Positions 16,407 to 18,524 of a DNA stretch of 64,000 bases are shown piece by piece; the first letter of the stretch is position 1, and every line of letters starts with the position of its first letter. Source of the stretch: Eledone cirrhosa (lineage: Eukaryota). Both the position numbers and the translations under genes were made by a program. The notes beneath the pieces were generated by a model. It did no database searches. It was not told the DNA's origin and saw only the letters and a list, made by a program, of their open reading frames with translations. The stretch covers positions 35,774,001 through 35,838,000 of the forward strand of contig OZ024749.1 of the NCBI GenBank assembly GCA_964016885.1. Direction: 5' to 3'.

Positions 16407-16450
16407 ATATTAAAATAACAGATTAAAGTTTAAGCAAAGGAATCGTTTCA

Positions 16451-16492
16451 CCGAGCTGATGATCTGAATAAGGTGAAACAAATTGTTCTTAG
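16451..16492 (+). ncRNA. Minimal hammerhead-like motif (family H1)
   Basis: CCGAG-CTGATGA-TCTGAATAAGGT-GAAAC-AAATT-GTT-CTTAG; weak stem II. Confidence 0.5.
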
Positions 16493-16537
16493 AAATGGTG
16501 AATTAACTATTGTGGAACTACTTATATATATATATAT

Positions 16538-16716
16538 ATCACAATAAATTAATGGAGCCATAGACTCTTGCTATTCCCTGTCAATAATGTGCTCAAAGGA
16601 GAAGAAATCCTGAGCTCTTTAAAATACAATATGTTGAAAAGGTAACACACTAGAGAGAGATACATTGCGCTATCAATAAAACAGGGAAAAACCACCAGTG
16701 TATGGAATTTATAACC
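16538..16716. repeat. (TA)n-flanked dispersed repeat
   Basis: Matches 27896-28000 (GGAGCCATAGACTCT..ATTCCCTGTCAATAATGTGC..CTGAGCTCTTTAAAATACAATATGTTGAAAA). Confidence 0.75.
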
Positions 16717-16744
16717 TATATATATATAGGTTATATATATATAC

Positions 16745-16969
16745 AGGAGACTGAGGTTAGCTGGACATGCTCACCGACATCCAGAGTTGGTATTGCACTC
16801 AGTGCTCCTGGACACACTAGAAGAGGAAGACCAAGGTTAACGTATGTTGATGCCCTAAGGACAGACACTGGTCTGTTGGAGACACAGGACATGGCAGCGA
16901 TAATGAGGGACAGAGACCGCTGGAGAGAACTCATCCATGGATCTCGGGAATTTTACCTGCCTTAGATAG

Positions 16970-16972
<3 letters not shown>
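16745..16972 (+). mobile_element. 3' fragment of a second RTE-clade LINE family
   Basis: RRLRLAGHAHRHPELV, then (frameshift) RRGRPRLTYVDALRTDTG..MRDRDRWRELI; TAGA tail. Confidence 0.8.
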
Positions 16973-17022
<50 letters not shown>

Positions 17023-17234
17023 GTTTCAGAAAGTTGTGAAAGCAACAATTCTTTGCTTAAACTTTAATCTGAACTAATAATAAATATTTGCTCTACGGGT
17101 TTATATATTCTTTTGGTGTCAGCCGGATGGCTGGAACAGGTAAAAGAGTAAATGATATATATACAATCCTTATCGAGCCCTCTTCAGATTTTGGTCTTCG
17201 TAATTATTAATACTATATATATATATATATATAT

Positions 17235-17332
17235 AGAAGAGAAATAGGACGAAGGTAAACAATTACAAAAGAATTTAATCCACGTATTTACAATTATTTT
17301 GTAATTGTTTACCTTCGTCCTATTTCTCTTCT
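17235..17332. repeat. Perfect 36-bp inverted repeat with 26-bp spacer
   Basis: AGAAGAGAAATAGGACGAAGGTAAACAATTACAAAA (17235-17270) and its reverse complement (17297-17332). Confidence 0.9.
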
Positions 17333-17533
17333 TTGATTACACTCCTCCTTTGTTCGTGTTTCCACTACAGAATCCCTACCAACCTGTCGAGTCACCTTAA
17401 CGTATGTTGAGAACTTTCCTCACAACTTGTTCTACCAAGCTTTGGAATACTCCTAATAACTGAATATATATATATATATATATAAAATAATTAAGTCAAA
17501 TATTTAAAATTTGGCTTCGTTTATTAAAGATGT

Positions 17534-17588
17534 ACTACTATATATATTTCGGTGACAGCCATCTTTGGCTGTGACCTCTTCAGGCAGT
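17534..17588 (-). ncRNA. Minimal type-I hammerhead ribozyme (canonical core)
   Basis: ACTGC-CTGAAGA-GGTCACAGCCA-AAGA-TGGCTGTCACC-GAAAT-ATAT-ATA-GTAGT: 5-bp stem I, 11-bp stem II with 1 mismatch, 2-bp stem III with palindromic loop, AUA cleavage triplet. AATAAA follows. Confidence 0.85.
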
Positions 17589-17813
17589 CCAAATTGGTGT
17601 GGTAGAGACAGGTACACATGTTGTTGAAGTGTTTTACTCCGTCAATACTCCGATATGTCCAGCTCCTGGTTGGGTTGTTATTTCTCTGAGGAACAACCAA
17701 CATATACTAAAAAAAATATATATATATATTTGTTTCTATTACTTCTGTATCGTATTTATTTACTTTGTTCTTAACTCTGTAGCGGAGATTCATTTGGTCT
17801 CCTAGTTAGAATT

Positions 17814-18022
17814 TTAGTCTACGACTTCTGCTATACCATTTACGTGGTTTTGTCTTTGCGTGCTTTTGTTCTCCACGCTCCACATATGACTTATTATCTT
17901 CGTTTTTTCGTTCATTGCCAGAGAACGTCTATATGCACCACCTAAGAGAACATTAGTCTACGACCTCTTTTATACCATAAACGTGGTTTTGTCTTTGCGC
18001 GTAATTGTTTTTCACCGCTCCT
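17814..18022. repeat. Diverged direct repeat (~140-bp period) in a (TA)n-flanked element
   Basis: TTAGTCTACGAC..TATACCAT..ACGTGGTTTTGTCTTTGCG at about 17814 and 17953. Confidence 0.8.
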
Positions 18023-18027
18023 ATTAA

Positions 18028-18072
<45 letters not shown>

Positions 18073-18100
18073 TAATTCCACAACAGTTAATTCACCATTT

Positions 18101-18141
18101 CTGAGAACAATTGTTTCACTTTATTCAGATCATCAGCTCAG
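18101..18141 (-). ncRNA. Minimal hammerhead-like motif (family H1)
   Basis: CTGAG-CTGATGA-TCTGAATAAAGT-GAAAC-AATT-GTT-CTCAG: perfect 5-bp stem I, palindromic stem III (AACAATTGTT), non-canonical stem II. Confidence 0.6.
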
Positions 18142-18524
18142 TTTAAACTCATCCCATGGATTGAGTGCTCTACTACTGATGAGTTTATGGCATCTTAATA
18201 TATTAATAAATTACTTTAATTAATATCTATTTCTTTGCCACAATGAAACTGCAGTATAAGCACAAATTTGTAAGTGAAATTTTATTTTTATTTTAAAATG
18301 TATTTTTTTGCTTGTAATTCTTACTTTTTTTACTATAAATTTTTTACTGTAAATTTTTACACCTAAATATAATTTAGAAAAAATAAAGATCTACAAATTA
18401 TAGTTTTTAGCCTATATAGTATTTGAGATATTTATGGTGTAATATGGCTGAAATAGTTTTAGTTTAGTCTATTCTTATATTATATATATATATATATGTG
18501 TGTGTGTGTATGCATGTATGTGTG

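What the first reader, a model, noticed from the sequence alone, without database searches (positions are those of the whole stretch)
16410..18235. Cluster of short (TA)n-embedded elements carrying hammerhead ribozymes: candidate Penelope-related or retrozyme-like non-autonomous system
Seen: within 1.8 kb, a run of 100-300-bp non-coding modules is separated by (TA)n. Three carry hammerhead motifs (16451, 17534, 18101), one a half motif (CTGAAGA at ~17180), one a 36-bp inverted repeat and one a direct repeat. Unrelated hammerhead families recur at 38900/39030, 60009, 61480, 523 and 39330. Known: Penelope-like elements and metazoan retrozymes carry minimal type-I hammerheads with palindromic stem-III loops, and PLEs often form inverted or tandem pseudo-LTRs. 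Inference: several distinct ribozyme-bearing mini-element families home to (TA)n tracts and pile up, without an RT or GIY-YIG ORF in this window.
Basis: partly seen in the sequence, partly recalled or inferred. Interest (0 to 1): 0.85.

Follow-up and report, generated by a model that had tools for sequence, protein, structure and literature searches.

The report
Penelope retroelement tails piled in microsatellites
This 1.8-kb stretch is a pile of about eight short, mostly unrelated repeat fragments between TA microsatellites; three carry real hammerhead-ribozyme motifs and are likely the cut-off tail ends of Penelope-like jumping genes, an already described and ordinary pattern in animal genomes.

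Summary
Three hammerhead cores are real: 16456(+) and 18136(-) are two copies of one family (A; a third, missed, lies at 22479), and 17583(-) is a second family (C) whose predicted dimer folds as the textbook two-copy hammerhead. Shuffles give 0.04-0.3 such motifs per window. The rest of the picture is weaker. The 'half motif' at 17180 is absent from about 80% of related reads. One module is the coding 3' end of a LINE, and four others hold no hammerhead. Sites 523 and 39330 have no core. Clustering is no stronger than TA density predicts (P 0.12-0.31). Family A's core matches 14 of 26 published Hydra-clade Penelope hammerheads, a clade that inserts into (TA)n, carries the ribozyme about 100-200 nt from its 3' end and occurs in octopus. 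Solo hammerheads, opposite-strand pairs and inverted 5'-truncated copies are all described for Penelope-like elements. Best reading: dead 5'-truncated Penelope tails (0.7). No tandem retrozyme array is present. No genome was held, so the parent ORF was not shown. One open point: all three A copies start within 2-6 nt of the core, which leaves room for a fixed-length 75-nt mini-element (0.2).

The parts
16408..16447 (-). Short inverted piece of a high-copy repeat (family B type), joined head-to-head to the 5' end of family A copy 1
   Evidence: Matches 17044-17071 inverted. Related reads end in (TA)n at 16407 and continue with other sequence after 16439 (2961 reads).
16450..16522 (+). Family A copy 1: minimal type I hammerhead (core 16456-16462, GAAA 16475-16478, predicted cut after 16487) plus 35-nt tail ending at (TA)8
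   Evidence: The extra A in stem III is private: 18 of 22 reads show the palindrome.
16539..16716 (.). Dispersed repeat without hammerhead; a second copy at 27895-27997 shares the same TA boundary
   Evidence: 92% over 119 nt with TA; repeat depth; no CUGANGA.
16744..16974 (+). 5'-truncated 3' end of a LINE (frameshifted coding C-terminus, 16748-16962); no ribozyme
   Evidence: 19 of 120 LINE proteins hit it by tblastn at E<=0.01; a C-terminal profile gives E 2.3e-5. Deepest module.
17019..17213 (.).
   Evidence: Joint 17098->17166 in 529 reads from 74 starts; letter counts at 17185 and 17186. Copies at 1-128 and 38704-38751.
17235..17464 (.). Inverted-repeat module: 36-bp arms (17235-17332), one arm abutting (TA)n, the other running on for about 130 bp; no hammerhead
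   Evidence: Only generic hairpin (miRNA) Rfam matches, all below gathering score.
17485..17716 (-). Family C: type I hammerhead (core 17583-17577, 10-bp stem II with one mismatch, GAAA 17550-17547, palindromic UAUAUA stem III, predicted cut after 17539), 54-nt tail, (TA)n on both sides
   Evidence: Monomer z -2.12. Dimer MFE is the two-copy hammerhead fold. 3401 of 3550 reads turn the stem I G.U into G-C.
17729..18030 (.). Direct-repeat module (75-bp units, 81%), very high-copy repeat, no hammerhead
18071..18142 (-). Family A copy 2: core 18136-18130, GAAA 18117-18114, palindrome CAAUUG, 5-bp stem I, predicted cut after 18106, tail ending at (TA)20
18145..18177 (+). 33-bp repeat piece, inverted at the 5' end of A copy 2; in other reads it follows the family A tail (candidate Penelope 'tail extension')
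   Evidence: Joints 16474->18145 (50 reads, one start) and 18091/18106->18145 (one contig each in X1 and X4). The interpretation follows and is inferred.
22414..22481 (-).
38780..39181 (.). Family D: perfect head-to-head inverted pair (201-bp arms, no spacer) with minimal hammerheads at 38932(-) and 39029(+, GAAA lost); extra A, G10.1-C11.1, AAUU palindrome
59813..60317 (-). Family E: TA-flanked module with near-complete hammerhead at 60005-60070 (GGAA for GAAA, palindrome UGAUCA, 4-bp stem I)
   Evidence: z -2.45.

Best explanation
The cluster is a pile of separate insertions into TA microsatellites, and its three hammerhead-bearing modules are likely the 5'-truncated 3' ends (solo pseudo-LTR remnants) of Penelope-like retroelements, family A likely of the Hydra type. 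SHOWN: each module is a repeat found elsewhere in the genome; the cores, stems and palindromes; the same 3' junction to (TA)n in all three A copies; inverted junctions; no tandem array; one LINE end among the modules. INFERRED from Penelope biology: a full-length element elsewhere makes RT and GIY-YIG nuclease, nicks a (TA)n tract and reverse-transcribes from the RNA 3' end. It usually drops off after 70-250 nt, or restarts in the opposite direction and leaves an inverted pair. The insertion leaves TA on both sides, which would be a target for the next one. The minimal hammerhead is predicted to cut only as a dimer through its palindromic stem III, so solo genomic copies would be mostly inert passengers.
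For: Family A core (U after CUGANGA, U before GAAA, short stem II) matches 14 of 26 Hydra-clade rows in Craig 2021 File S2. 26 of 27 Hydra families are listed as (TA)n-inserting. The hammerhead entry lies 87-210 nt from the consensus end in 23 of 24 families (my subtraction from the two tables). Here core-to-TA is 66, 66 and 67 nt (A), 99 (C) and 149 (D1), against a background chance of 0.057 within 70 nt and 0.098 within 100 nt. A's 2-bp stem II keeps pairing through C-G, U.G and U-A in 3 of 3 copies (few copies). Cervera 2014 describes thousands of solo minimal hammerheads per genome as probable truncated PLEs, opposite-strand pairs 100-700 bp apart, and the extra nucleotide, G10.1-C11.1 and palindrome seen in family D. 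Craig 2021 describes heavy 5' truncation, adjacent inverted copies, 30-40-bp tails and (TA)n bias, and lists Hydra and Naiad families in Octopus. The C dimer folds as the two-copy hammerhead (-41.8 against 2 x -17.3 kcal/mol). PLEs cover 6.83% of Octopus vulgaris in 190 families, so several tails per 64 kb are expected if the host is an octopus. Clustering P is 0.12-0.31 once insertions are placed on TA tracts.
Against: No Penelope ORF was linked to any family: none in the window, none among the read pieces shown, and no genome to search. Read by eye, A, C and D do not match the published Hydra-1_Obim hammerhead or the Naiad_Obim and Naiad_Ovul 3' ends. All three A copies start 2-6 nt upstream of the core, which random truncation does not predict. 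The fall in depth along C (443k, 190k, 120k in X1) is not monotonic by position (61k at 17628) and is distorted by restriction sites in X21, so it is weak support. The A homodimer MFE forms stems I and III but not stem II, and A monomers do not fold into the active shape. The octopus host is my recall from the SINE and microsatellite pattern; one search did not confirm it.
Confidence: 0.7

Rival explanations
1. Family A (and perhaps C) is a dedicated, fixed-length non-autonomous mini-element, made of only a ribozyme and a tail. It is transcribed from a start just upstream of the hammerhead and moved in trans by Penelope proteins into (TA)n.
For: 3 of 3 A copies begin 2-6 nt 5' of the core and end at the same base. 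One X4 contig shows another inversion junction just upstream of the A core (loose end at 18149). C has TA on both sides. Non-autonomous PLEs are described in Chlamydomonas, and the PLE promoter lies in the pLTR.
Against: Only three copies. What lies 5' of each differs and includes inverted pieces, as expected of truncation junctions. RT stalling at the ribozyme fold could also cluster 5' ends (inference). A has low depth (3k-11k against 120k-440k for C), unlike a successful mini-element.
Confidence: 0.2
2. The modules are dispersed monomers of non-LTR retrozymes whose tandem arrays lie elsewhere and which spread through circular RNA.
For: Solo monomers of retrozymes are described as evenly spread, and retrozymes are proposed to derive from pLTRs. 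C (232 bp) is in the size range.
Against: No hammerhead in any tandem array of the window. No head-to-tail joint of C among the 15 joints shown of 81. Cores are minimal, whereas coral retrozymes use canonical ones. A is only about 75 bp.
Confidence: 0.07
3. The cluster is a selected, functional locus, or the motifs are chance.
For: 3 of 5-7 hammerhead insertions within 1.7 kb has P 0.02-0.06 under uniform placement. The two A copies face each other.
Against: P is 0.12-0.31 on TA tracts; 11% of equal-sized windows have as many tracts. The modules are unrelated repeats. The motifs exceed shuffles, and 0 of 20 chance matches to the A core in metagenomes had a stem I above 2 bp. The A copies lie on opposite strands, so one transcript cannot hold both as a dimer.
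Confidence: 0.03

Closest known systems
Hydra-clade Penelope-like elements and their 3' hammerheads (Craig et al. 2021, PMC8557442; abstract passages, section 11, supplement parts 2, 24, 52 read)
   Same: Family A core layout (14 of 26 rows), (TA)n target, hammerhead about 100-200 nt from the 3' end, truncation and inversion, presence in Octopus.
   Different: Sequence unlike the one listed octopus family (Hydra-1_Obim, by eye); stem II only 2 bp against 3-7 bp there; no ORF linked. The AC..GU stem III also occurs in Chlamys rows, so it is not diagnostic.
Minimal hammerheads of metazoan PLEs (Cervera and de la Pena 2014, PMC4209133; parts 1-2 of 4 read)
   Same: Solo dispersed motifs in many families per genome, opposite-strand pairs, palindromic 15.2-16.2, predicted dimer action. 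Family D has the extra nucleotide and G10.1-C11.1.
   Different: Family A has U.U in place of G10.1-C11.1, and family C lacks the extra nucleotide. That paper names no octopus family in the parts I read.
Animal non-LTR retrozymes (Cervera and de la Pena 2020, PMC7229834, passages; Li, Clavereau and Pollet 2026, 10.64898/2026.07.22.740005, part 1 and passages)
   Same: Short, non-coding, low GC, type I hammerhead, proposed PLE origin.
   Different: Defined by tandem units that each carry a hammerhead; none here. Circular RNA not tested.
Non-autonomous Chlamys elements such as MRC1 (Craig et al. 2021, passage)
   Same: Non-coding PLE derivatives that share 3' ends with autonomous families.
   Different: Algal, with pLTRs and head-to-tail copies; most Chlamys lack hammerheads.

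Membership tests
Minimal type I hammerhead (PLE type) | CUGANGA, GAAA and UH core in type I order | tested here: met
   16456, 18136, 22479, 17583, 38932. Not met at 17187, 61518, 523 and 39330; one mismatch each at 60062 and 39029.
Minimal type I hammerhead (PLE type) | Stem I of 4-5 bp | tested here: met
   5 bp at 18136 and 17583, improved in the read majority for C. Only 3 bp at 16456 and 2 bp at 22479 and 38932.
Minimal type I hammerhead (PLE type) | Palindromic stem III that allows a dimer | tested here: met
   CAAUUG (A), UAUAUA (C), AU (D). C dimer MFE is the full two-copy fold; A dimer lacks stem II.
Minimal type I hammerhead (PLE type) | G10.1-C11.1 pair with one unpaired base before it | tested here: inconclusive
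   Met in D; C has G-C without the extra base; A has U.U as in 14 of 26 Hydra rows.
Minimal type I hammerhead (PLE type) | Self-cleavage | not testable with these tools
   Needs an in vitro assay.
Penelope-like elements (Hydra clade for family A) | RT plus C-terminal GIY-YIG ORF upstream of the hammerhead | not testable with these tools
   No genome held. No PLE ORF in the window: 147 of 527 candidate frames plus one LINE ORF scanned by Pfam, all six frames by motif patterns. The fragments reach only 2-255 nt upstream of the core, within 3' UTR range.
Penelope-like elements (Hydra clade for family A) | Insertion into (TA)n without a clear target-site duplication | tested here: met
   3 of 3 A copies end at the same base on (TA)n; C, D and E also end on TA.
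Penelope-like elements (Hydra clade for family A) | Hammerhead near the 3' end | tested here: met
   66-249 nt from core to TA, against 87-210 nt for 23 of 24 listed families.
Penelope-like elements (Hydra clade for family A) | Inverted 5'-truncated copy next to the 5' end | tested here: met
   38780-39181 perfect pair; inverted pieces at 16408-16447 and 18145-18177; opposite-strand joints in reads.
Penelope-like elements (Hydra clade for family A) | Variable 5' truncation | tested here: inconclusive
   The A copies share nearly one 5' end; the C depth trend is ambiguous.
Animal non-LTR retrozyme | Tandem units, each with a type I hammerhead | tested here: not met
   In this window only: none of the 32 CUGANGA sites lies in a long tandem array (27 of 177 rows were not shown).
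Animal non-LTR retrozyme | Monomeric circular RNA | not testable with these tools
   No RNA holder listed.

The most novel reading that the evidence does not exclude
Family A is a fixed-length retroelement of about 75 nt, nothing but a Hydra-type hammerhead and a 35-nt tail. It begins at the ribozyme's own stem I and is copied by Penelope proteins into TA microsatellites: a Penelope-dependent counterpart of a SINE, neither a retrozyme array nor random debris.
Probability: 0.2. Interest if true: 0.55.

Novelty: new member of a known kind. Interest (0 to 1): 0.24.

Why it matters
As read here it matters little: it adds a few probably uncatalogued families to a described class. It also shows that Rfam misses them and that TA-rich animal DNA is full of such tails. 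If family A has a fixed 5' end at the ribozyme, it would be a very small ribozyme-bearing mobile element. It would then give a handle on the open question of what the hammerhead does in Penelope transposition, which Craig 2021 calls unclear.

Tried and rejected
Whole-genome search: no genome held. Rfam: 1 tRNA match in the window; 28 sub-threshold matches in 16300-18300, none a hammerhead or twister. Metagenome scan with the family A core: 20 of 20 loci were chance matches (stem I 0-2 bp, no TA tracts); useful only as a negative control. Sequencing runs: no RNA holder listed; the 16 holders with share 0.14 or less are no evidence, and only X5 of them was laid. X1 may be the sample behind the window, and summed contig depth is not a copy number. 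Piles of read starts and ends looked like element borders, but 8 of the 10 shown sit on AATT or CATG, so I rejected them as restriction artefacts. Homolog search with the 72-aa LINE end found nothing; local tblastn and a profile settled it. Homolog search with the 866-aa LINE gave best identity 54% and did not name the host. Pfam on 148 frames found no GIY-YIG or PLE RT; 380 of 527 short frames were checked only by motif patterns. Four short motifs were absent from the Craig 2021 supplement. The family A profile found no fourth copy (next hit E 0.099). Lunse et al. (PMC5785218) is not held; I saw only its title in a reference list. The octopus repeat paper's supplement (5,371 characters) had no hit for hammerhead or ribozyme; its repeat library, Repbase and Dfam could not be seen and may already list these families. 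The bioRxiv supplement was not opened. Literature searches listed no paper devoted to cephalopod hammerhead families beyond Craig 2021 and a count of 235 Rfam hits in giant squid; one search was too loose to count. Earlier findings: none for this genome or sequence.

Full report
Setting. The window is microsatellite-rich eukaryotic DNA (177 tandem-repeat rows; 113 (TA)5+ tracts). It holds a tRNA-headed repeat in at least eight copies and two LINE RT ORFs. I take it to be an octopus from recall of this SINE and microsatellite pattern; no call confirmed that. No genome was held, so genome-wide evidence comes from one laying of public reads and from papers.

The observation. Eight TA tracts cut 16408-18235 into eight modules of 115-302 bp. 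A descriptor for type I hammerheads found complete cores at 16456(+), 18136(-) and 17583(-), and outside the finding at 22479(-) and 38932(-). Local dinucleotide shuffles gave 0.04-0.29 per window under the three main settings; 0, 0 and 1 of 100 shuffles reached the observed count. A fourth setting gave 2 against 0.11 (1 of 100). The descriptor was written after I had seen the motifs. A scan of metagenomes with the family A core returned 20 loci, none with a stem I above 2 bp, so core letters alone do not bring the stems. 16456, 18136 and 22479 are one family, A. Sites 523 and 39330 have no CUGANGA, 61518 lacks GAAA, and 60062 has GGAA.

What the reads add (three contig sets and one RAD raw-read set; no RNA). 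All eight modules attract reads or contigs from other copies, so each is a dispersed repeat. Summed X1 depth runs from 2k-6k (inverted-repeat module) and 3k-11k (A) to 120k-440k (C) and 0.7-1.2 million (LINE end); this ranks them only roughly. For C, 3401 of 3550 reads change 17537 so that the stem I G.U becomes G-C. For A, 18 of 22 reads restore the CAAUUG palindrome in copy 1. Both changes favour the fold. Read start and end piles are restriction sites (8 of 10). Only 40 of 155 letter rows, 15 of 81 joints and 24 of 1196 loose ends were shown, so a 5' extension of A or C could be hidden.

The other modules. 16748-16962 encodes a frameshifted LINE C-terminus: 19 of 120 fetched LINE proteins hit it, and their C-terminal profile scores E 2.3e-5. 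That it is RTE-like is my recall of the motif. The modules at 16539, 17235 and 17729 have no core. The one CUGAGGA at 17686(+) and the CUGAUGA at 18176(+) have no partner GAAA under the descriptor. So 3 of 8 modules, from 2 families, carry an intact hammerhead.

Folding. The C monomer forms stems I and II (z -2.12). Two copies form intermolecular stems I and III with stem II inside each copy, which is the two-copy hammerhead (-41.8 kcal/mol against 2 x -17.3). A monomers do not fold into the active shape, and the A dimer forms stems I and III but not its 2-bp stem II. Cleavage is untested. Cervera 2014 found no activity for a single minimal motif and low activity for dimers.

Is the cluster special? 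Three of five to seven hammerhead insertions within 1680 bp has P 0.02-0.06 under uniform placement and 0.12-0.31 when insertions are placed on TA tracts. 11% of equal-sized windows have as many tracts. The pile-up needs no cause beyond TA targeting.

Mechanism. Shown: repeats, cores, fixed 3' junctions on TA (66-67 nt from the core in 3 of 3 A copies; background 0.057), and inverted junctions, including the perfect 201-bp pair at 38780-39181. Inferred: target-primed reverse transcription by a Penelope RT/GIY-YIG protein at (TA)n, early drop-off or inversion, and TA left on both sides as the next target. A copy that contains the whole core must come from an uncut RNA, which fits a ribozyme that cuts only as a dimer (inference).

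Comparison with what is known. Cervera and de la Pena 2014 report thousands of solo minimal hammerheads per genome in many families, read as truncated PLEs, with opposite-strand pairs 100-700 bp apart. Family D has their extra nucleotide, G10.1-C11.1 and palindrome. Craig et al. 2021 describe 5' truncation, adjacent inverted copies, 30-40-bp tails and TA bias. Their Hydra clade has hammerheads, inserts into (TA)n in 26 of 27 families and includes Octopus bimaculoides. Family A's U.U-closed core matches 14 of 26 Hydra rows. By eye, A, C and D match neither the Hydra-1_Obim hammerhead nor the two octopus Naiad 3' ends I read. A 2026 annotation gives 190 Penelope-like families over 6.83% of O. 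vulgaris, 31 of them recently active (passages and one supplement row), but I could not see its library. Retrozymes are defined by tandem units, and none is present here. Membership of the PLE class is therefore met on target, position and inversion, but untested on the defining ORF.

What stays open. All three A copies start 2-6 nt upstream of the core, and one contig shows another inversion junction there. RT stalling at the fold could explain this, but so could a fixed-length mini-element. Three copies cannot decide; I give it 0.2.

Earlier findings of the scan. None exist for this genome or sequence. 358 notes in at least 29 genomes hold both 'hammerhead' and 'Penelope', which shows only that such notes are common. 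One note on a twister in a Naiad tail made me recheck the hammerhead-less modules; Rfam shows no twister there.

Verdict. Real motifs, mostly ordinary biology: probably uncatalogued families of a described kind. Interest 0.24.

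Noticed in passing
window 1-128, 17019-17213, 38704-38751, 16408-16447: Family B: a high-depth short repeat with one TA-joined end shared by three window copies. Reads show at least two arrangements, one with an inverted junction next to a decayed hammerhead-like hairpin. About a fifth of reads keep CUGAAGA letters, so a subfamily with a core is not excluded.
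   Followed up: partly
window 17541-17546: The stem III palindrome of family C is UAUAUA, the same letters as the microsatellite it inserts into; any meaning is untested.
   Followed up: no
window 13465-16062(-) and 45535-48000(-): Two copies of a LINE with long open RT frames and a PHD-type finger after the RT domain; best database relative 54% identical.
   Followed up: partly
window 51251-51715(-): 155-aa frame that looks like the restriction-like endonuclease end of an R4/Dong-type LINE (my recall; Pfam only weak, E 0.076).
   Followed up: no
window 43466-43786(-): Mariner transposase HTH remnant (PF17906, E 2.4e-6).
   Followed up: no
window 1045-1152, 6504-6580, 60460-60607: Further short fold-back repeats, which may be inverted 5'-truncated insertions.
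   Followed up: no
window 40588-41592: Eleven identical 91-bp tandem copies, no hammerhead; recent expansion or assembly artefact.
   Followed up: no
window 54745(+) and 54774(-): Two facing CUGAUGA; the minus-strand one is followed by a 5-bp hairpin and GAAA but has no stem I, so it failed the descriptor.
   Followed up: partly
window 17729-18030: One of the deepest repeats in the reads (385k-768k in X1), with an internal 75-bp duplication and an end resembling the inverted-repeat module at 17235; family unidentified.
   Followed up: partly
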